A DNA stretch of 64,000 nucleotides from an uncultured delta proteobacterium (GTDB taxonomy: Bacteria; Desulfobacterota; Desulfomonilia; UBA1062). The DNA is taken from the NCBI GenBank assembly GCA_963798485.1, contig CAWCTR010000007.1:256001-320000 (forward strand), written 5' to 3'. Below the pieces are notes generated by a model. It was not told the origin of the DNA. It saw nothing but the letters and a program-made list of their open reading frames with translations, and did not search any database. This document shows positions 5,612-12,811 of the stretch, piece by piece (position 1 is the first letter of the stretch; every line of letters starts with the position of its first letter). Both the position numbers and the translations under genes were made by a program.

Positions 5612-5686
5612 GCGGGAATAACTCAGTGGTAGAGTGTAACCTTGCCAAGGTTAAAGTCGCGGGTTCGAATCCCGTTTCCCGCTCCA
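5612..5686 (+). tRNA. tRNA-Gly (GCC)
   Basis: GCGGGAA acceptor stem / TTCCCGC-T-CCA, anticodon loop cttGCCaag, T-loop GTTCGAATC. Confidence 0.97.
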
Positions 5687-5710
5687 GCCTTTTTTCTTAA
5701 TCTCATCCCC

Positions 5711-5741
5711 CATCACTTCGGTTAATGAAGTGGTGTTTTTT
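5711..5741 (+). terminator. Intrinsic terminator after tRNA-Gly
   Basis: catcacttc...gaagtggtg hairpin followed by T-tract. Confidence 0.7.
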
Positions 5742-5790
5742 CTTTTTGGGCTGATACCCAAATGTGGTTTTGAGCATATGAAACGAATAG

Positions 5791-5888
5791 AGATTCTTCA
5801 CTTCGTTCAGAATGACAGTAAAATGATAAGTTAGGTTGTCATCCTGAGCCGAAGCCCTGAGCGAAGTGAAGGGGCAGCGAAGGATCTA
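5791..5888. repeat. Inverted pair of REP-like palindromes (agattcttc...tcagaatgaca / tgtcatcctgag...gaaggatct)
   Basis: Two imperfect palindromic units in inverted orientation; related unit agatttctccctgcggtcgaaatgaca at about 12760-12785. Confidence 0.6.
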
Positions 5889-5937
5889 TAAAACCAATGA
5901 GCATTTGGGCAACAGCCCGTTTTCAGAATACACATCA

Positions 5938-5975
5938 CCCCTCCCCTTCAAGGGGAGGTTTGGGTGGGGATGGGG
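5938..5975. repeat. REP-like palindrome (ccctccccttcaaggggagg...gggtgggg)
   Basis: ctcccctt/aaggggag hairpin with G-rich tail, a common extragenic palindrome type. Confidence 0.5.
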
Positions 5976-5982
5976 TTATCGG

Positions 5983-6186
5983 ATTATTGTCCCTTTCTTT
6001 TGGCGCCAAAAGAAAGGGACGAAAGAAAAGGCGCCCCGTGAACCCGCCCTTCGGGTCCGTTCGCTCGCTTGGAAAATCCGGGCCGCGGCTGAACTCGCTC
6101 CGTTTCACTCCGCTCAGACAGACGCCGCTGTTCCCCCGGATTTTCCCGCACTCGCTCACCGGGTTCAAGGGGACGAACAAAAACCC
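5983..6186 (+). repeat. Left copy of ~200-bp structured repeat (inverted relative to 12812-13015)
   Basis: Aligns base by base with reverse complement of 12812-13015 with about ten differences. Confidence 0.92.
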
Positions 6187-6349
6187 TGCATGAGCATCAC
6201 TTGCGAGCCGGACAATCAAGCCTCAGGGAAAAAACCTTTTAAGATTCTTTCCTTGATCAAATCCAGCCAATGAAGTAAGCTGTAATATGTGAAGTGCTAT
6301 AGGTTTCAGAGACATATCGTCTTCAGAATTTTCTGCAGTTTATCTGTAT

Positions 6350-6405
6350 TATGCCCTTATACAGAATTCTGCATTATCAATAATTCTGTATAGTAATTGT
6401 TGGGC
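6350..6405 (+). other. Putative attI-like site / first cassette core site
   Basis: GTTGGGC (6399-6405) is the exact complement of the cassette's R'' GCCCAAC (6897-6903); AT-rich upstream with inverted repeat TATACAGAATT (6358-6368)/AATTCTGTATA (6382-6392); no attC arms upstream. Confidence 0.55.
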
Positions 6406-6430
6406 CTTTATCAAGGAGGAGATAGCATCT

Positions 6431-6889
6431 ATGGATCTCAATCTAAGCTGGCACAAACATCTACCATTAACGGATGACTCAGAGAACAACGGCGTCTACA
6501 CAGTTGATCTCTCTCGTATTCCAAACTCCGCAGGTATCTATATGTTCTTTCGGGTCCACGGGGATTCGGCCAAGTGCCTCTATGTCGGAAAGGCAACAAA
6601 CCTGAAGGCCCGGATCAAGACGCAACTGAATAATTCGAAGCTAATGCAAGGCATCAAGAACTCGGCCACGGGAGCGCGGAGGTTGATATTCGGGGAGTTC
6701 ATCGCAAAACCCGGCCAACAAGAAGAGAGAAGTTTGTTGGCTATGGAACGCACACTGATTAGACACTACCTTTCGCTGGGTGAACAGTTGTTGAATATCA
6801 AAGGCACACGGATGGTAAAGAACTCAGTCACTTCTGACCGTCCAGAACTGAAGAGTTTCATCCCTCATGTGATTTACTTCGAGGAGTGA
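6431..6889 (+). CDS. GIY-YIG nuclease-family protein (integron gene cassette 1)
   Basis: 'IPNSAGIYMF...LYVGKATNLKARI...ERTLI...LNIKG' UvrC-N-like GIY-YIG motif; RBS AGGAGG; bounded by core site and attC. Confidence 0.8.
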   Translation: MDLNLSWHKHLPLTDDSENNGVYTVDLSRIPNSAGIYMFFRVHGDSAKCLYVGKATNLKARIKTQLNNSKLMQGIKNSATGARRLIFGEFIAKPGQQEERSLLAMERTLIRHYLSLGEQLLNIKGTRMVKNSVTSDRPELKSFIPHVIYFEE

Positions 6890-6896
6890 GTGCATG

Positions 6897-6991
6897 GCCC
6901 AACAAGGCGCTCCAGGCGGACCCCTGGGGCCGTCAGTCCTTGCAAAGTTTTCCGTTCACCTGCCCCAGGGGCCGCTGAGCTTGGCCGTTAT
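6897..6991 (+). other. attC site of cassette 1 (R' interrupted by group II intron after GTTAT)
   Basis: R'' GCCCAAC; arms ctcCagGcggAcccctggggc (6910-6930) / gccccaggggccgctgag (6962-6979) with extrahelical bases; R' GTT at 6987. Confidence 0.88.
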
Positions 6992-7635
6992 TCGCGATGC
7001 GAAGTTGCATAATCGAATGTGATTACAGGAGGATAGAGAAACTGGAAATCACCTGGTGTGTCTCCGCCAGTACCCTAGGACGGCATGCGTGCTGTGCGTT
7101 GTGCAGCGGGTGTGAAGCCCGTCCGACAATGTACCGAACCGGGAGGAAGCCGTGAGGTGGAATCCCATCCGAGAATCCCGCTCGGTTAAGGGCTAGGGTC
7201 AGGGCAATATGGCGAGAACAGGCAAAGGATTTCACGCGCCGTCAGACGAGCAACGGACCTACAGGGATTAAGAGGTCTAAGACGTGCTTCTCATGTGTTT
7301 GCACGTGTGGGGAGGTTGCAGGTTGCTAACGTACCTGCACGGGTCCTAATAAGCCACCGGCGTTCAAGTCCCGCCTACGTTGTCCACAATGGTCGATTAT
7401 GCAGAACGCAGTAACCCCACCCCTTCGCCCGGTGCAAGACCTGGCAGGCATTACCGTAAGGCGTGCTGTCGGAGCGGTGGGAAAGAGAGGTCGGAAGAAG
7501 CAAATGCCGCAGGTAACGCTACGGATAGGGCATGAGACATGGCCCGACGCGAAAACCGGGAGCATCAGCCCCGGTGAGAGCGTGCAGACGTCCGACCGGT
7601 GTCTTGGTGCGAGAGAACTTGGAGAACCTTTGGAG

Positions 7636-9135
7636 ATGGGAAGGCAAAAGACGGCTGATAAGGCTGGTGCACTCATCGCTGACGCGCAGAAGTGGAAATC
7701 CATTGACTGGAGAGACTTAAGGCGTCAGGTCAGAAGGCTGCAGGTACGTATCGCACAGGCTGTGAAGGAAACCAGGTGGAACAAGGTAAAGGTGCTTCAG
7801 TATCTGTTAACCCGCTCGTTATACGCCAAGCTGATGGCTGTGAAACGGGCGACCTCCAACAAGGGGAAGAATACCCCTGGCGTTGACGGCGTCTTGTGGC
7901 GAAGCGCCCGAGCCAAATGGCGGGCTGCGTGCAGCCTGCGCAGACGTGGCTACAAGCCTCAGCCGCTCAGGCGGATTTATATCCCGAAGAAGAATGGGAA
8001 GAGGAGACCTCTATCGATCCCAACCATGCAGGATCGGGCAATGCAGGCACTGTATAAACTGGCACTGGCCCCGGTAGCGGAAACAACTGCCGACAGAAAT
8101 TCCTACGGCTTCCGTGAAGGACGGTCGTGTGCCGATGCAGTAGCAGCAGCATTCAATGCCCTGTCCAAGCCGAACTCGGCAACCTGGGTGATGGAGGGAG
8201 ACATCGAAGGATGTTACGACAACATCTCCCATGACTGGATTCTCAGAAACATTCCGATGGATAAGACCGTGCTGCACAAGTGGCTGAAGGCAGGGTACGT
8301 GGAAGACAACAAAACGTATCCGACCCGCAGAGGAACACCGCAAGGAGGGATAATCAGCCCGACCATTGCAAACATGACGCTCGACGGTCTGGAGGAGGTC
8401 ATCCAACGTGCAGTCCCCCGTCGAAGCCGAGTCAACTTCATCCGCTATGCCGATGACTTCATCATAACAGGCAAATCAAAACGTCTGTTGGAAGAAGACA
8501 TCAAGCCTGCGGTGGAGATGTTTCTTGCGGAACGCGGTCTATCCTTATCACCAGCCAAGACTGCGATCACCTACATCAAGAACGGGTTTACGTTCCTCGG
8601 GCAAACTTTCCGAAAGCATGGACGGGTGCTGCACATCACTCCGGCAAAAGAGGGAGTCCTCGCCCTCGTACGGAAGTTGGGAACGATTATCCGCAAACAC
8701 GTCAGCGCGCCGATGCCGGTCCTGATCAAGGAGTTGAATCAGACACTCCGAGGCTGGGCCAATTACCACCGCCACGTGGTAGCGTCGGATGCCTTCTGTC
8801 GCATCGACACCTATGTCTTCGAACAGTTGTGGCGTATGGTGCACAGGCGTCATCAGAGCAAGCCCGTGAAATGGCTGATCAAGGAATACTGGACAGCCTC
8901 GGGTCTAAAACATATATTTGCAGTACGCTCGAAAGATGCCAAAGGTCGAGTAAAAGTATATCAGGTTCTCAGAGTATGCACCATAGGCATTCGAAGGCAT
9001 AGGAAGATCAAAGCAGACGCGAACCCTTACTTGCCGGAATACGCTGCTTACTACTGGCAGCGCAGGCATGAAAAGGAAAGCAAACTGCTTGCGGCCCTCT
9101 CTGCTCGACAGATTCGAGCGATGAAGGCCGCTTAG
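7636..9135 (+). CDS. ltrA: Group II intron reverse transcriptase/maturase (CL-like, no HNH endonuclease)
   Basis: RVT_N 'WKSIDW...VRRLQVRIAQA', 'TPGVDG', 'GTPQGGIISP', 'RYADDF'; ORF-track start 7399 lies inside ribozyme domains so a later start is used. Confidence 0.93.
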   Translation: MGRQKTADKAGALIADAQKWKSIDWRDLRRQVRRLQVRIAQAVKETRWNKVKVLQYLLTRSLYAKLMAVKRATSNKGKNTPGVDGVLWRSARAKWRAACSLRRRGYKPQPLRRIYIPKKNGKRRPLSIPTMQDRAMQALYKLALAPVAETTADRNSYGFREGRSCADAVAAAFNALSKPNSATWVMEGDIEGCYDNISHDWILRNIPMDKTVLHKWLKAGYVEDNKTYPTRRGTPQGGIISPTIANMTLDGLEEVIQRAVPRRSRVNFIRYADDFIITGKSKRLLEEDIKPAVEMFLAERGLSLSPAKTAITYIKNGFTFLGQTFRKHGRVLHITPAKEGVLALVRKLGTIIRKHVSAPMPVLIKELNQTLRGWANYHRHVVASDAFCRIDTYVFEQLWRMVHRRHQSKPVKWLIKEYWTASGLKHIFAVRSKDAKGRVKVYQVLRVCTIGIRRHRKIKADANPYLPEYAAYYWQRRHEKESKLLAALSARQIRAMKAA

Positions 9136-9226
9136 GAGGTATCACAGTCGGGCCGCTCCACAGGAGCTGCCTTCAAAGATGCTTGAGCCGTATGATGGGA
9201 AACTATCACGTACGGTTCTGAGGGGG

Positions 9227-11167
9227 TTGCGCCTTGAAGCGTTTGGAATACAGTGGTCTGAAATGACCACCTTGGTAAAGCCTAGCCAGCAGCCAAGTAC
9301 CGAGTCTTGCGTGGTGAGCGGTAACAATCACTGCGAAGCGTAGACAGGAAGGTGATAGGCCGGAATCGAAAGATGAAGAGGATAATTAGCCCCGAAATCG
9401 AACGTGTTTGAAGCAGTCGACCTTATCTCTCTATGGGGAAGACAACAATCTCATGGTCGCTTAATGGCAAGAACATGAGATTGCTTCCGGGGTACGAACC
9501 TACGGCATGTTACCAAAGGATTCCAAGTGAACAAGGGAGATCCGGCGAACCCAGGCGGAGCCTGTAGGAACAAACAAGCCTACAAAGCGAGGATGTTCCG
9601 ACGGTTTGTCGGAAGTCGGACTGGCTGATAGTACTCAGAGACAGGGAGAGCCTGTTACAAGGGGAAGCGGCCAGCGGGATTTGAGCTCTTCTAAGGAAAC
9701 ATGAGCTCCATACAAAGGGAGGATACGAGCCTTAATGCAAAGTAAGGATAACTCAGTCATGGGAACGGGATTAGAAGGGATAGCAGCAAAAGCTCGAAAG
9801 GAAACAAAGCTCAAGTTCACGACATTATGCCATCATGTCACCCGAGAGTTGATCTGGAAGAGTCTGAATAGCATTCCTAAACAATCGGCACCGGGAGTGG
9901 ATGGTATCAGCGTGGAGGAGACGAAGAAGACATTCGATGCATGGATAGACGAGATGCTAACATCCATACACCGAAAAGCCTACCATGCACCACCGGTAAG
10001 GCGGGTTTGGATACCCAAGCCTGGGAAGACCTCCAAGAGGCCTATAGGCGTACCTTGTATGGCGGACCGAGCACTGCAAAGAAGTGTTTCGGTGGTTCTG
10101 TCAAGTATTTATGAACAGGACTTTCTGCCGTGCTCATTTGGAGGCCGACCGAAACTGAGTGCCCATCATGCCCTATCCACACTCAATGAAATCATAGCGG
10201 GCAAGAAGGTCAGTTGGGTACTCGAAGCAGATCTAAAGAACTTCTTCGGTAGTTTGAACCATGGATGGATAGAACGGTTTGTTGAACATCGAGTCGGAGA
10301 CCCGAGGATTATAAGCTTGATAAGGCGATGGTTAAAGGCTGGCGTCCTGGAAGAGGGCGAGGTGAAACCGGTTGAAGAGGGGACTCCCCAAGGGGGGTCC
10401 ATCAGTGTACTGCTGAGCAATATATATCTCCATTACGTTTTGGATCTTTGGTTTGAAAGGGTGATAAAACCCAAACTGAAGGGAGAAGCCTATCTGGTAA
10501 GGTATATAGATGATTTTGTAGTATGCTTTCAGCTTAGGTCGGATGCGATCTTCTTCCAAAAGGTACTGGTAGAAAGACTTGAGAAGTTTAGCTTGGAATT
10601 AGAACCTGAGAAGACCCGGTTAGTGGAGTTCGGGCGCTTTGCCCAACGCGAGGCAAAGGAAAAGGGTAAGAGCCTGGAGACTATATACTTTCTGGGATTT
10701 ACCCATTACTGTACCCGCAACCGCAAGGGCAACTTTATGGTGGGTCGCAAGATAGAAAAGTCTCGATTCCGGCGGAGTGTTCAAAATTTACAGGCACTGA
10801 TGCGGGAAATCAGGCACTATTCCTTGGGAGAACAACTTGAGAAAATCAACCAAGTGCTGAGAGGCCACTATGCTTACTATGGAGTAGGTGGGAACGTTAA
10901 ATCATTGTTCAAGATTTACCGTATTGCCGAAAGATACTGGCGTAAGATGCTGAGTAGCCGGAGCCAGAAGAGCTACATAACCTGGGATAGATTCTGTTGC
11001 CTTAAGCAGGTGTTTCCGTTACAGCAGCCCAAGCTTTCTGTACCCTTCGGGAGGATGAAAGCACTCGCTGTGCTGTGAAACAAATTCTGAAGAGCGTAGT
11101 GCGGGAAATCCGCACGCTACGTTCTGTGGGGGTTGGGGCTGCCAATTTGCAGCCCCTTCTACCCGGC
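9227..11167 (+). mobile_element. Inner group II intron (bacterial class E-like) inserted between DV and DVI of the outer intron
   Basis: 5' ttgcg; conserved DI 'gagtcttgcgtgg...tgcgaagcgtagacag'; DV gagcgtagtgcgggaaatccgcacgctacgttc (11092-11124); DVI ends tacccggc; candidate EBS1 ctctct (9427-9432) pairs with exon aggggg (9221-9226). Confidence 0.87.
9735..11078 (+). CDS. ltrA: Group II intron reverse transcriptase/maturase (class E-like, no endonuclease)
   Basis: 'KFTTLCHHVT', 'APGVDG', 'LEADLKNFFGSLNH', 'GTPQGGSIS', 'RYIDDF', thumb 'LRGHYAYY'. Confidence 0.93.
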   Translation: MQSKDNSVMGTGLEGIAAKARKETKLKFTTLCHHVTRELIWKSLNSIPKQSAPGVDGISVEETKKTFDAWIDEMLTSIHRKAYHAPPVRRVWIPKPGKTSKRPIGVPCMADRALQRSVSVVLSSIYEQDFLPCSFGGRPKLSAHHALSTLNEIIAGKKVSWVLEADLKNFFGSLNHGWIERFVEHRVGDPRIISLIRRWLKAGVLEEGEVKPVEEGTPQGGSISVLLSNIYLHYVLDLWFERVIKPKLKGEAYLVRYIDDFVVCFQLRSDAIFFQKVLVERLEKFSLELEPEKTRLVEFGRFAQREAKEKGKSLETIYFLGFTHYCTRNRKGNFMVGRKIEKSRFRRSVQNLQALMREIRHYSLGEQLEKINQVLRGHYAYYGVGGNVKSLFKIYRIAERYWRKMLSSRSQKSYITWDRFCCLKQVFPLQQPKLSVPFGRMKALAVL

Positions 11168-11209
11168 GAACGGGGCGGTAACGCCCCCGACCTACCCGGT
11201 GAGTAAAAG

Positions 11210-12643
11210 GTGATGAGAACATTTTATAGATTTCGATCAACGCATACTTTGCTTGATGGCCGCCATGAGTTGGAGAACCAAGAGATTTATTTTGCATCAC
11301 CAGAAGAACTCAATGACCCCATGGAGGGCTTCAAAGACATTTATTGGCAAGGAGATGAGGTTGCATGGAAAAACCTTATGATTCATTATCTCCTCTGTCT
11401 GGAACACGTGTGTTCATTATTTATTGTTGGAGGTAATAGCGTTGCCATCAAGACAGGAGACATTCCTGTTTTCAAGACAGAAGAACAACTGCCTACTGTG
11501 CAATACAAAGGCTTGTTCAATGAAATAATGAATAAGTTCTTCGGAAATGAAATGATTAGTCAATGTATAAAGAATCTTTCGAGCAGGTCAAGCCCAGTAC
11601 GGCGAAGTGAGTTACTGACTTATATCAGAAGTTTTCATCCATATGCTCTGGAAACTATATTTGCTTTATACGAACGCCACCACCTAATTGATAAGCGTAA
11701 AGATACAGATCAAATTCGCCAGATTGCTGAAGAAACTTTGTCACACTCCCCGATCTTATTGGAACTTACAAATAAATTTGAAGAGGAGCATCCTGATGTA
11801 GAGCGTAGTGCGGATAAGCTTTTCTCTACTGCAGCGCATATAGCTTCACAACTCGGTTTGATTACGAGATACAATGTTTCACCTCCTAACGATGATAATA
11901 GAATATTCCTCCTTTTCGGCTTCCCCGATGGGTACATCCAAAGCATTGAGCGAATTGTGTATCCTGACTGGTATGCAGCCTGTTTCATGACAAAGTACAG
12001 CAACTCTTCCGTATGGGGAAATTATGGAAATAAGCATCAAGGTGTATGCCTATCTTTCAAAGCAGTGACCGATAATGATCGCGCTTATATCAAGCTTTAC
12101 GGAATAAATGGATGGGGTAGTTCTGGCCCAAGCTATGGGATAAGAGATCATACGTTCTATAAGATTGATTATGAAAAGAAACACGTCGAAGTCGATTTCT
12201 TTAGGTCTTTAGGTCGTCTTCCAAGCCCTGTATTGATGAAGTGTTGGTATACTAATGAAAACGGCTCAAGAAGTACTTGTGCTGACGACATTTTTAAATA
12301 CGAGGATCAGTGGAGGGAGAGATACTGGACAAAATTCTACCAAGGAATAACTACGAAGATTGTGGATTGGATGTATGAGGAGGAATACAGACTGATTCTG
12401 ACCGGTTCCATTTTGGATTATAGTGATCCTGAGAGCAGAAAGCTCAAGTTTGACTTCAATGACTTGGAAAGCATCACATTCGGGATAAAAACCTCAACAG
12501 AAGATAAACTAAAGATAATGAAAATAATTGAATCGAAATGTCGAAGCGAGAATCGGAAAGAATTCGATTTCTACCAAGCTCATTATTCCTGGCAAACAGG
12601 AACCATAGAACGTAGCAAAATGGATCTACTTTGCTTTGCATGA
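11210..12643 (+). CDS. DUF2971-like protein (integron gene cassette 2)
   Basis: 'FYRFR', 'YFASPEELNDPMEG', 'WGNYGNKHQGVCL', 'K..DW.YEEEYR', 'ITFG' motifs; AT-rich; followed by R'' box. Confidence 0.7.
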   Translation: MMRTFYRFRSTHTLLDGRHELENQEIYFASPEELNDPMEGFKDIYWQGDEVAWKNLMIHYLLCLEHVCSLFIVGGNSVAIKTGDIPVFKTEEQLPTVQYKGLFNEIMNKFFGNEMISQCIKNLSSRSSPVRRSELLTYIRSFHPYALETIFALYERHHLIDKRKDTDQIRQIAEETLSHSPILLELTNKFEEEHPDVERSADKLFSTAAHIASQLGLITRYNVSPPNDDNRIFLLFGFPDGYIQSIERIVYPDWYAACFMTKYSNSSVWGNYGNKHQGVCLSFKAVTDNDRAYIKLYGINGWGSSGPSYGIRDHTFYKIDYEKKHVEVDFFRSLGRLPSPVLMKCWYTNENGSRSTCADDIFKYEDQWRERYWTKFYQGITTKIVDWMYEEEYRLILTGSILDYSDPESRKLKFDFNDLESITFGIKTSTEDKLKIMKIIESKCRSENRKEFDFYQAHYSWQTGTIERSKMDLLCFA

Positions 12644-12646
12644 AAA

Positions 12647-12672
12647 TACTCATAACAAGCTAATCCAGCGGC
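12647..12672 (+). other. Truncated attC (R'' and L'' only) of cassette 2
   Basis: tactcATAAC-aagctaatccagcgg; no matching L'/R' arm visible downstream. Confidence 0.65.
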
Positions 12673-12811
12673 GGGTGGCCTTGGAATGAGAGGAAATCCT
12701 GGGTGACACGGGCGAAGCTCAAAGAGCTTGCCCGTGGGATAGGAAAGTTAAAGACGTAAGATTTCTCCCTGCGGTCGAAATGACAAATAGAAAGTAGTGA
12801 AGTGGTCTTTT

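What the first reader, a model, noticed from the sequence alone, without database searches (positions are those of the whole stretch)
9185..11200. Twintron: class E-like intron inserted between catalytic DV and branch-point DVI of the outer intron
Seen: outer DV, then tgaggggg, then a complete second intron (9227-11167), then the rest of outer DVI gaacggggcggtaacgcccccgacctacccggt. The inner EBS1 candidate CUCUCU pairs fully (two G-U) with AGGGGG before the junction, and the inner intron's own DV-DVI linker is similar (tgtggggg). Inference: an intron specialised on the conserved DV-DVI linker of other introns, forcing ordered splicing (inner, then outer) before cassette 2 mRNA is restored: intron in intron in attC in a repeat-bounded island.
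Basis: partly seen in the sequence, partly recalled or inferred. Interest (0 to 1): 0.75.

Follow-up and report, generated by a model that had tools for sequence, protein, structure and literature searches.

The report
Intron that parasitises other introns' core
A self-splicing mobile intron sits inside the branch-point hairpin of another such intron, and it belongs to a widespread bacterial lineage that almost always inserts at this same conserved spot of other introns, a parasite-of-parasites habit I could not find described.

Summary
The twintron is real. The inner group II intron (9227-11167) splits the 5' strand of domain VI of an outer intron (about 6992-9226 plus 11168-11200). A second, empty copy of the outer intron in the same genome reads exactly ...GAGGGGG|GAACGGGG.... 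Two more copies of the inner intron in this genome also follow another intron's domain V.

Among relatives (reverse transcriptase 63-87% identical) from many phyla, 55 of 66 assessable insertion sites lie 4-9 nt after a domain V hairpin. Of these, 49 passed a strict detector whose background was 479 of 40000. Of 8 more distant relatives, 0 did.

EBS1 (CUCUCU, 9427-9432) covaries with the last exon bases. Hosts fall in five Rfam D1-D4 families.

- The site is inside domain VI, 1-2 bp above the branch adenosine, not in the linker.
- The outer intron is intergenic, so no reading frame is restored.
- "Class E" and ordered splicing are untested.

Known relatives of the idea are introns that home into the RT YADD motif or domain IV of other introns. 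Ten literature searches found no domain V/VI homing lineage, but key older papers were not readable. The scan noted a similar ORF-less case before (e1-3915472).

The parts
6895..6991 (+). attC-like imperfect inverted repeat ending in GTTAT, directly before the outer intron
   Evidence: Read. The second outer copy and two relatives have a different repeat with similar ends and the same ...CGTTA before the intron. The DNA fold is not better than shuffles (z -1.49), so attC identity is not shown.
6992..9226 (+). Outer (host) group II intron, 5' part: 5' end about 6992 (+/-1; U[C/U]GCG), D1-D4, IEP ORF, DV, linker and the first 5 nt of DVI
   Evidence: RF02012 at 7052-7193 and RF00029 from 9183. 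The 5' boundary comes from comparing 4 copies.
7399..9135 (+). Outer intron IEP ORF (RVT_N, RVT_1, GIIM). The true start may be the ATG at 7639.
   Evidence: The second copy is 94.6% identical over 578 aa.
9185..9218 (+). Outer domain V (34 nt)
   Evidence: RF00029 alignment; fold of the identical empty-site copy.
9215..9220 (+). Probable IBS2 of the inner intron (GUUCUG: last 4 nt of outer DV plus 2 nt of linker)
   Evidence: Pairs 5 of 6 with UCGAAC at 9398-9403. Exon -11 covaries with the fifth base of that motif (33 of 42 paired, 0 of 5000 shuffles). Exon -8 pairs in only 6 of 42.
9221..9226 (+). IBS1 of the inner intron (AGGGGG: last linker base plus the 5' strand of the outer DVI basal helix)
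   Evidence: 6 of 6 pairs with CUCUCU. Covariation at exon -2 and -4 across 33 distinct combinations.
9227..11167 (+). Inner group II intron, 1941 nt, 5'-UUGCG...GGC-3'
   Evidence: Boundaries fixed by the empty site. A 100% identical copy lies at G000:C18:3107-5047 and an 89% decayed copy at C3:1935-3908.
9261..9502 (+). Inner intron D1-D4 core
   Evidence: RF02005, 144.3 bits, full length.
9398..9403 (+). Candidate EBS2 (UCGAAC) in an internal loop of D1
   Evidence: moderate support only.
9427..9432 (+). EBS1 (CUCUCU) in a D1 hairpin loop
   Evidence: Loop position in the RF02005 alignment; covariation with the 5' exon.
9735..11078 (+). Inner intron IEP ORF, 447 aa, RVT_1 + GIIM, YIDD motif, no En domain found
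11092..11167 (+). Inner DV (11092-11124), linker UGU, DVI with bulged A at 11161, 3' end at 11167
   Evidence: RF00029, 45.9 bits; fold.
11168..11200 (+). Rest of the outer DVI (upper hairpin, bulged A at 11194) and the outer 3' end ...CCCGGU
   Evidence: The flanks of the two outer copies diverge after 11200.
11210..12643 (+). Downstream ORF (477 aa, no Pfam match) starting 9 nt after the outer intron

Best explanation
The region is a genuine bacterial twintron.

The inner element is an intact, recently mobile group II intron. Its ribozyme recognises, by base pairing, a 12-nt site made of three parts of another intron:
- the last bases of the host's domain V;
- the 3-nt DV-DVI linker;
- the first 5 nt of the host's domain VI.
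EBS1 (CUCUCU) pairs with AGGGGG. A probable EBS2 (UCGAAC) pairs with GUUCUG.

This stretch is among the most conserved sequences of group II ribozymes. The lineage can therefore retrohome into DNA copies of introns of several structural classes, including its own. It lands 1-2 bp above the branch-point adenosine on the opposite strand.

The IEP has no endonuclease domain. By analogy with other En-less introns, integration is inferred to depend on reverse splicing into transiently single-stranded DNA and host-primed cDNA synthesis.

Consequences, all inferred:
- While the inner intron is unspliced, its EBS1 holds the 5' strand of the host branch helix. Lariat formation by the host should therefore wait for inner splicing.
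- Host lariats made after inner splicing give daughter host copies that are empty, as the second outer copy is. The inner intron must re-invade each new host copy.

What is shown: the anatomy, the empty site, the target preference across the lineage, and EBS1 covariation. What is inferred: the mobility pathway, the splicing order, and the effect on the host intron.
For: 1. Empty site and boundaries. The second outer copy reads GAGGGGG|GAACGG and folds into canonical DV plus DVI with a bulged A.

2. Own genome. All 3 of 3 inner copies follow DV plus a linker plus GAGAG, GAGGG or GGGGG of different hosts. The window host and the C18 host share about 31% RT identity and fall in different Rfam D1-D4 families, RF02012 and RF01999. 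The C7 and C18 inner copies are 100% identical over 1941 nt, while the two outer copies are 97% identical, as expected for recent separate invasions.

3. Lineage-wide sampling. Of 570 relatives found in species-representative genomes, the best 80 (79 loci) were kept.
- 66 junctions were assessable, counting the 3 own copies.
- 49 have a strict DV hairpin ending 4-9 nt upstream. Background at random positions of the same loci was 479 of 40000.
- 5 more have a degenerate DV and 1 has a half DV.
- Rfam RF00029 at its curated threshold independently calls the host DV in 15 of the first 59 junctions.
- The DV-junction sites among those 59 come from 35 assemblies in at least 9 phyla, including complete genomes.
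- 2 of 2 Sinorhizobium plasmid copies examined fit.

4. Negative control. 0 of 8 introns with RT 38-45% identical have a DV upstream.

5. Phylogeny. The lineage is one clade (SH-aLRT 99) with DV-junction sites throughout.

6. EBS1/IBS1 covariation. Exon -2 with intron 202 pairs in 31 of 33 distinct combinations. Exon -4 with intron 204 pairs in 29 of 33. Each was reached by 0 of 2000 shuffles.

7. Off-target copies. Five non-intron sites mimic the target (for example ggatctgagggag), as expected for sequence-guided retrotransposition.

8. Exon ligation restores DVI. Joined exons fold into a DVI helix with a 1-2 nt bulge ending in A at 31 of 36 distinct DV sites and at 0 of 4 ectopic sites (long DVI of RF02003-type hosts).

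9. Host range. Host D1-D4 hits fall in five Rfam families: RF02012, RF01999, RF02001+RF01998, RF02003 and RF02005.
Against: - There are no RNA data. Neither splicing of either intron nor its order has been observed.
- EBS2 is only moderately supported. Exon -8 pairs in 6 of 42, and an alternative candidate (CGGAAUCG, 9361-9368) is conserved even in the off-target member L055.
- 9 of 66 junctions are outside introns: L007, L024, L050, L076, L077, L055, L042, and less surely L060 and L072. Two more lie directly behind another copy (L011, L069).
- Only the best 80 of 570 relatives were seen. 13 loci could not be assessed: 9 run off the contig and 4 have no 5' end.
- Many junctions share an assembly or a host family, so they are not independent events.
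- The DV detector is home-made. Rfam at its gathering score finds only 15 host DVs, because the DVI half of that model is interrupted.
- For L021 and L023-L025 the 5' end used lies 1.7-2.3 kb upstream of the RT, so those copies may be interrupted or separate.
- A stricter test for a single bulged A passed only 20 of 36 sites. A motif test for the branch helix did not beat its controls.
Confidence: 0.82

Rival explanations
1. Recognition is mainly structural, as in class C (IIC) introns that insert after terminator or attC hairpins. On this view the lineage reads the DV hairpin formed in single-stranded DNA, and base pairing with EBS1 or EBS2 only fine-tunes the site.
For: A stable 34-nt hairpin always lies 4-9 nt upstream. 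The IEP lacks an En domain, like IIC introns. Support for EBS2 is weak. One ectopic site, L050, has a CCCGCC...GGGCGG stem upstream.
Against: The other ectopic sites (L007, L024, L076, L077) share the 12-13 nt sequence but no evident hairpin. EBS1 is 6 nt and covaries with the exon, unlike the 3-4 nt IBS1 recalled for IIC introns. Exon -11 covaries with the intron loop base. The proposed IBS2 lies in the DV 3' strand, which would be hidden if the hairpin formed.
Confidence: 0.1
2. This is a one-off accident: an ordinary intron happened to retrotranspose into another intron, with no specialisation.
For: Group II introns do occasionally land in ectopic sites. The IBS1 match here has two G-U pairs.
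Against: 3 of 3 copies in this genome, and 55 of 66 junctions overall, are at the same host position. 0 of 8 sister-lineage introns are.
Confidence: 0.02
3. The upstream DV and downstream DVI piece belong to the same element as the 'inner' intron, for example as spare DV/DVI modules for alternative splicing like C.te.I1 of Clostridium tetani. Alternatively, the arrangement is an assembly chimera.
For: Repeated DV/DVI modules exist in C.te.I1 (review PMC4424553, passages read). The inner intron is a multi-copy repeat, and one contig (C10) breaks right after a host DV.
Against: The outer element has its own D1-D4, its own intact RT and an empty-site copy. The hosts differ in class. The same junction type occurs in 35 assemblies, including complete chromosomes and plasmids.
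Confidence: 0.02

Closest known systems
YADD-homing group II introns M.a.I5, UA.I3, P.l.I2 and B.th.I3 (Tourasse and Kolsto 2008, PMC2504315, section 13 passage read; Dai and Zimmerly 2003 not readable)
   Same: An En-less intron lineage whose IBS1/IBS2 lie in a motif conserved among retroelements. Members therefore home into other group II introns and create twintrons.
   Different: Their target is the protein-coding RT active site (RYADD) in domain IV. Here the target is the ribozyme core (DV 3' strand, linker, DVI 5' strand), so ORF-less hosts and hosts of several RNA classes are hit and the branch helix is split. Sequence relatedness between the two lineages was not tested.
Thermosynechococcus elongatus twintrons (ORF-less TeI3/F3 introns in TeI4/F1 introns; Mohr, Ghanem and Lambowitz 2010, PMC2882425, passages read)
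   Same: Independent recent insertions of identical inner copies into diverged outer copies. The conserved site in another mobile intron acts as a route of proliferation.
   Different: There the inner intron is ORF-less, closely related to its host, and sits between two start codons in DIV. Here the inner intron carries the RT, sits in DVI, and its hosts are often unrelated or ORF-less.
Euglena chloroplast twintrons, e.g. psbF with the internal intron in domain V (as summarised in the review PMC4424553; position recalled)
   Same: The inner intron interrupts a core ribozyme domain, so inner splicing is expected to come first.
   Different: Those are organellar, ORF-less, non-mobile relics at single gene positions, not a mobile lineage with a defined intron target.
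Trichodesmium twintron (Pfreundt and Hess 2015, PMC4649490, passages read)
   Same: A bacterial twintron for which sequential splicing was shown experimentally.
   Different: That inner intron lies in domain I of the host, in a protein-coding gene. No lineage-wide targeting was described in the passages read.
UHB.I2, a group IIB intron in a soda-lake cassette array (Sonbol and Siam 2021, PMC7923331, sections 7 and 12 read): closest to the OUTER intron
   Same: Inserted immediately after an attC-type site in the orientation of the cassettes, with ends 5'-UUGCG...GU-3' and an En-less IEP. The outer intron here has U[C/U]GCG...GU and follows ...CGTTA in 4 of 4 copies.
   Different: attC identity of the site here is not demonstrated.

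Membership tests
Group II intron (inner element) | Six-domain ribozyme: D1-D4 core, catalytic DV, DVI with a bulged adenosine | tested here: met
   RF02005 full length at 144.3 bits and RF00029 at 45.9 bits, both above the curated cut-offs. The fold shows DV and a DVI with bulged A at 11161.
Group II intron (inner element) | Intron-encoded RT/maturase in domain IV | tested here: met
   RVT_1 6.4e-31 and GIIM 1e-05. YIDD is present and the ORF is open.
Group II intron (inner element) | Consensus ends 5'-GUGYG...AY-3' (recalled consensus; also quoted in PMC7923331) | tested here: not met
   The ends are 5'-UUGCG...GC-3', fixed by the empty site. First and penultimate bases change together across the lineage: U...G in most members, G...A in L041, L042, L049 and L055. 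This is a variant, not a disqualification.
Twintron | A complete intron lies inside another intron, and its removal restores the host intron | tested here: met
   An empty-site copy of the host has the exact junction. The host has its own D1-D4, RT and DV.
Twintron | Sequential splicing, inner first | not testable with these tools
   No RNA data. Inferred only from the overlap of IBS1 with the host DVI 5' strand.
[quoted passage not shown] | IEP groups with class E reference IEPs in a phylogeny | not tested
   No class E reference sequence could be fetched. The lineage has members on Sinorhizobium plasmids, and a class E intron, S.me.I4, is reported in S. meliloti (PMC5894124, passage), but identity with it was not checked.
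[quoted passage not shown] | IEP without D/En domain | tested here: met
   447 aa with only RVT_1 and GIIM found by Pfam. This is shared with classes A, C, D and F (PMC3552965), so it is not diagnostic.
YADD-homing twintron-forming lineage (M.a.I5 group) | 5' exon (IBS2-IBS1) is the RT active-site coding motif of the host | tested here: not met
   The 5' exon is DV 3' strand, linker and DVI.
Class C (IIC) introns | Insertion after a hairpin, with short IBS1 and no EBS2 (recalled; 'no EBS2-IBS2 pairing in class C' in PMC2504315) | tested here: inconclusive
   A hairpin (DV) is always upstream. However, EBS1 is 6 nt and covaries, a candidate EBS2 exists, and the RNA matches RF02005, not the RF02001/RF01998 pair seen in the CGC-triad hosts.
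attC-associated IIB introns (UHB.I2-like), for the outer intron | Inserted directly after an attC in cassette orientation, with 5'-U...GU-3' ends | tested here: inconclusive
   4 of 4 close copies follow ...CGTTA preceded by imperfect inverted repeats, and they end in GU. The attC fold is not significant. The pattern search found only one such motif in the window, with total matches at chance level. No integrase was seen among the ORFs scanned.

The most novel reading that the evidence does not exclude
The lineage is a true hyperparasite of group II introns, with consequences beyond a safe landing site.
- By splitting the branch helix it makes host lariat formation, and hence host retromobility, depend on its own splicing.
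- It has entered a division of labour with ORF-less hosts. About half of the hosts with a detected D1-D4 are only about 500-750 nt from D1 to the insertion site (11 short against 12 long). These hosts may be spliced or mobilised by the inner intron's RT. That would make a composite element in which the protein gene rides in DVI, inside a second ribozyme, instead of in DIV.
- A bolder variant is that invasion can occur at the RNA level, by reverse splicing into host intron RNA, and is then fixed by host retrohoming.
Probability: 0.2. Interest if true: 0.85.

Novelty: new variant of a known kind. Interest (0 to 1): 0.72.

Why it matters
Group II introns are the presumed ancestors of spliceosomal introns and are used as gene-targeting tools.

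A lineage whose natural homing site is the catalytic DV / branch-point DVI junction of other introns would matter in several ways:
- It shows that the ribozyme core itself can serve as a conserved, cross-class 'address'. That adds a second kind of intron-on-intron parasitism to the known RT-motif homers.
- It gives a natural system for testing how interruption of the branch helix affects branching versus hydrolysis, and host intron mobility.
- It may explain some nested arrays, and the persistence or decay of ORF-less introns in bacteria.
- It flags a systematic blind spot. Intron-finding pipelines drop or mis-call nested copies (PMC4028801 and PMC8919778, passages).

The lineage is not rare. 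There were 570 matching stretches in one-genome-per-species collections, and members occur on plasmids of well-studied rhizobia.

Tried and rejected
1. My first DV detector was too loose (background 614 of 3000) and was replaced by a strict one. One search timed out.

2. CGGAAUCG (9361-9368) was considered as EBS2. It gives an 8-bp match, but the motif is conserved in all members, including L055 with an unrelated target, so it was rejected.

3. A general covariation scan did not find EBS2. The UCGAWC loop was found only on inspection and remains tentative.

4. A motif test for the host branch helix in the 3' exon did not beat its controls. Shuffled partners gave 46% and reversed exons 15 of 40, so it was dropped. 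A strict single-A-bulge fold test passed 20 of 36 sites; a relaxed one passed 31 of 36.

5. The attC reading was checked. The fold z-score was -1.49. The R''-like motif gave 11 matches against 13.3 expected, with only one good match. It remains unproven.

6. The extra 1.2-1.8 kb between D1 and the RT in L021 and L023-L025 was looked at. The ORFs there gave no informative Pfam match, so it is unexplained.

7. Literature. Four papers are not held: Simon et al. 2008 (PMC2525955), Dai and Zimmerly 2003 (PMC1370365) and Dai and Zimmerly 2002 (PMC101233). Michel et al. 2007 and Toro et al. 2002 were not looked up, because I assumed they were not held. Any of these could already describe the lineage. 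No supplements were read.

8. Earlier notes of this scan were searched by sequence and by place and gave nothing for this genome.
Full report
**Observation**

- The outer domain V is 9185-9218, followed by UGA and GGGGG (9219-9226).
- A complete intron follows at 9227-11167.
- The remainder of the outer domain VI is 11168-11200.

Rfam, at its curated thresholds, finds two sets of group II intron parts in series:
- RF02012 at 7052-7193;
- RF00029 from 9183 (60.8 bits);
- RF02005 at 9261-9502 (144.3 bits);
- RF00029 at 11090-11167 (45.9 bits).

Both intron ORFs are open and have RT and maturase domains. The inner one keeps YIDD.

The same genome holds a second copy of the outer intron, 97% identical, without the insert. 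It reads ...CGGTTCTGAGGGGG|GAACGGGGCGGTAACGCCCCCGACCTACCCGGT.

Folding the empty copy gives a canonical DV and a DVI whose basal helix uses those G residues. The insertion is therefore inside DVI, two base pairs above the bulged adenosine on the opposite strand, and not in the DV-DVI linker.

**Other copies in the same genome**

The inner intron occurs twice more:
- a 100% identical copy on contig C18;
- an 89% identical copy on C3, decayed by frameshifts.

Both are again preceded by another intron's DV plus ctgaGAGAG| or ctgtGAGGG|, and both are followed by the rest of a DVI.

The C18 host is unrelated to the window host. RT identity is about 31%, and the hosts match RF01999 and RF02012 respectively. 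Its site, AGAGAG, is a perfect Watson-Crick match to CUCUCU. The window site needs two G-U pairs.

Two further introns of the genome, on C17 and C2, have DVI 5' strands that mismatch CUCUCU, and they are unoccupied. Contig C10 ends right after the DV of a twin of the C18 host.

**Test across relatives**

The inner RT found 570 related stretches in the one-genome-per-species collection. The best 80 (79 loci, 63-87% identity) were returned.

I located 63 intron 5' ends, counting the 3 own copies. Of these, 59 had at least 50 nt upstream.

A strict hairpin detector used the DV geometry of the Rfam model, allowed at most one mismatch, and required the hairpin to end 4-9 nt upstream. It was positive at 45 of the 59. 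At random positions of the same loci it was positive at 479 of 40000.

The 14 negatives, inspected by eye:

| Kind | Count | Loci |
|---|---|---|
| Visibly decayed DV | 5 | L013, L015, L067, L078, L080 |
| Half a DV | 1 | L018 |
| Directly behind another copy of the lineage | 2 | L011, L069 |
| Non-intron site resembling the 12-13 nt target | 5 | L007, L024, L050, L076, L077 |
| Unrelated target that nevertheless matches its own EBS1 6 of 6 | 1 | L055 |

I then went back to the 20 loci I had dropped:
- 4 more are strict positives (L033, L041, L045, L049);
- 3 are not in a DV (L042, and less surely L060 and L072);
- 4 have no 5' end;
- 9 run off their contig.

The total is 55 of 66 assessable junctions in a DV-DVI site, 49 of them strict.

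Rfam itself calls the host DV at its gathering score in 15 of the first 59 junctions, even though the DVI half of its model is interrupted there.

The DV-junction sites among the first 59 junctions come from 35 assemblies in at least nine phyla, including complete chromosomes. Two Sinorhizobium plasmid copies that I opened show the same arrangement, with two adjacent 'ltrA' genes annotated.

As a control, I examined introns whose RT is only 38-45% identical, found in a 401-genome sample of the window's phylum. All begin with GUGCG and none is preceded by a DV, 0 of 8.

In an RT tree the lineage is one clade (SH-aLRT 99) with DV-junction sites throughout. The off-target members are nested inside it or are identical to on-target copies.

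**How the site is read**

The loop that Rfam's alignment places as the D1 hairpin holding EBS1 (window 9427-9432) covaries with the last bases of the 5' exon:
- exon -2 pairs in 31 of 33 distinct combinations;
- exon -4 pairs in 29 of 33.

Four and three pair types occur at these positions, and no shuffle out of 2000 reached either value.

Upstream, exon -12 to -7 (GWUCKR, the end of DV plus linker) can pair with an internal-loop motif UCGAWC (9398-9403). Its fifth base covaries with exon -11 (33 of 42 paired, 0 of 5000 shuffles). Exon -8, however, pairs in only 6 of 42. I therefore call this a probable EBS2 only.

The ectopic sites keep the sequence but not an obvious hairpin. This favours sequence recognition over structure recognition, and I keep the latter as a rival.

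The first and penultimate intron bases change together:
- U...G in most members;
- G...A in L041, L042, L049 and L055.

This supports the boundary calls.

**What excision restores**

Joining the flanks in a script and folding them gives a DVI helix with a 1-2 nt bulge ending in A at the following rates:
- 31 of 36 distinct DV-class sites;
- 3 of 4 decayed-DV sites;
- 0 of 4 ectopic sites.

The insertion lies 1-2 bp above that bulge. Hosts of the RF02003 type have a long (about 100 nt) DVI with the same geometry.

Two stricter or alternative tests were weaker and are reported under Tried and rejected.

**Hosts**

Where a host D1-D4 match lay within the stored flank, it fell in one of five Rfam families:
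- RF02012: 1;
- RF01999: 6;
- RF02001 with RF01998, with CGC-triad DVs: 3;
- RF02003: 7;
- RF02005, the inner intron's own type: 7.

There is also self-nesting up to three deep in one Vicinamibacterales genome (L048, L051).

Eleven of these hosts are short, about 490-750 nt from D1 to the insertion, so presumably ORF-less. Twelve are full-size. One (L031) is a fragment.

Among 10 relatives of the outer intron in other genomes, none is occupied.

**Mechanism, and what is inferred**

Shown:
- the nested anatomy;
- the empty site;
- a lineage-wide preference for one position of other introns;
- a covarying EBS1.

Inferred from established knowledge of En-less group II introns: retrohoming by reverse splicing into DNA, with host-primed cDNA synthesis.

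Inferred from the overlap of IBS1 with the host branch helix:
- The host cannot branch until the inner intron has spliced.
- Host copies made from spliced RNA are empty, which fits the empty second copy.
- The inner intron must therefore re-invade.

Hydrolytic splicing of the outer intron with the inner one still in place is not excluded.

**Context**

The outer intron is intergenic. It follows an attC-like imperfect repeat ending in GTTAT and ends 9 nt before the next ORF. Splicing therefore restores no reading frame.

Four of four close copies of the outer intron follow ...CGTTA, and its ends are U[C/U]GCG...GU. This resembles UHB.I2 (PMC7923331, sections 7 and 12 read). attC identity is not demonstrated.

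The island lies between tRNA-Gly (5612-5686) and an aminoacyl-tRNA synthetase gene.

**Comparison and novelty**

Introns that home into other introns are known:
- the YADD-motif homers (PMC2504315, passage read);
- the T. elongatus DIV twintrons (PMC2882425, passages read);
- nested arrays in Methanosarcina (review PMC4424553, passages read).

A Trichodesmium twintron has its inner intron in domain I (PMC4649490, passages read).

None of the ten searches produced a description of a lineage targeting the DV-DVI junction. The 2018 review of S. meliloti introns does not contain the word twintron.

Several key older papers could not be read, so prior description cannot be excluded.

Another note (e1-4064418, unchecked) reports attC-inserting introns near UHB.I2.

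I rate this a new variant of a known kind.

Noticed in passing
window 6895-6996; L105 (second outer copy); L095, L097: The outer intron and its close relatives (72-97% RT identity) all sit right after ...CGTTA preceded by an imperfect inverted repeat. They have ends U[C/U]GCG...GU and lie in the orientation of the flanking ORFs. This looks like an attC-following IIB lineage like UHB.I2.
   Followed up: partly
L113 about 590, L122 (reverse strand) about 919, L127 about 1004: Three sister-lineage introns (RT about 38-42% identical) start with GUGCGCC immediately after GGAGG...ATGA. That is just past a ribosome-binding site and start codon, and it recalls start-codon-targeting introns noted elsewhere in this scan (e1-2078249).
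   Followed up: no
G000:C17:74189-76300 (L088, L128): Two introns of the RF02005 type lie head to tail. The second starts (GUGCGCC) right after the 3' end of the first.
   Followed up: no
G000:C10:125350-125410 (L090): Contig C10 ends exactly after the DV (...cgtccggttctg) of a twin of the C18 host intron. The assembly breaks at the insertion site, so occupied and empty versions, or the repeat itself, may coexist.
   Followed up: no
L048 and L051 (one Vicinamibacterales chromosome); L011: Self-nesting of the lineage. Up to three DVI remainders (CCGGAGGCGGGTGACCGCCTCCGGCGACCCGGT) follow one another after the innermost copy. L011 shows a more complex tandem or nested arrangement that I did not resolve.
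   Followed up: partly
L021, L023, L024, L025 (Terriglobia): The lineage's 5' end and D1 lie 1.7-2.3 kb upstream of the RT, instead of about 0.5 kb. The extra DNA has long ORFs without informative Pfam matches. It could be an insertion or two separate partial copies.
   Followed up: partly
window 5612-12700: A small island next to tRNA-Gly(GCC). It holds an ORF without a family (5866-6273), a GIY-YIG domain ORF (6431-6889), the twintron, and a 477-aa ORF without a family (11210-12643). It is flanked by PHA synthase genes and an aminoacyl-tRNA synthetase gene.
   Followed up: partly
L011 4330-4409: A c-di-GMP-I-GGC riboswitch match (RF03167, 71.9 bits) lies downstream of one relative. It is unrelated to the finding.
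   Followed up: no
plasmid collection: 4394 plasmid records, mostly Klebsiella, carry an RT less than 60% identical to the inner IEP. This is a different, very common plasmid intron and was not examined.
   Followed up: no
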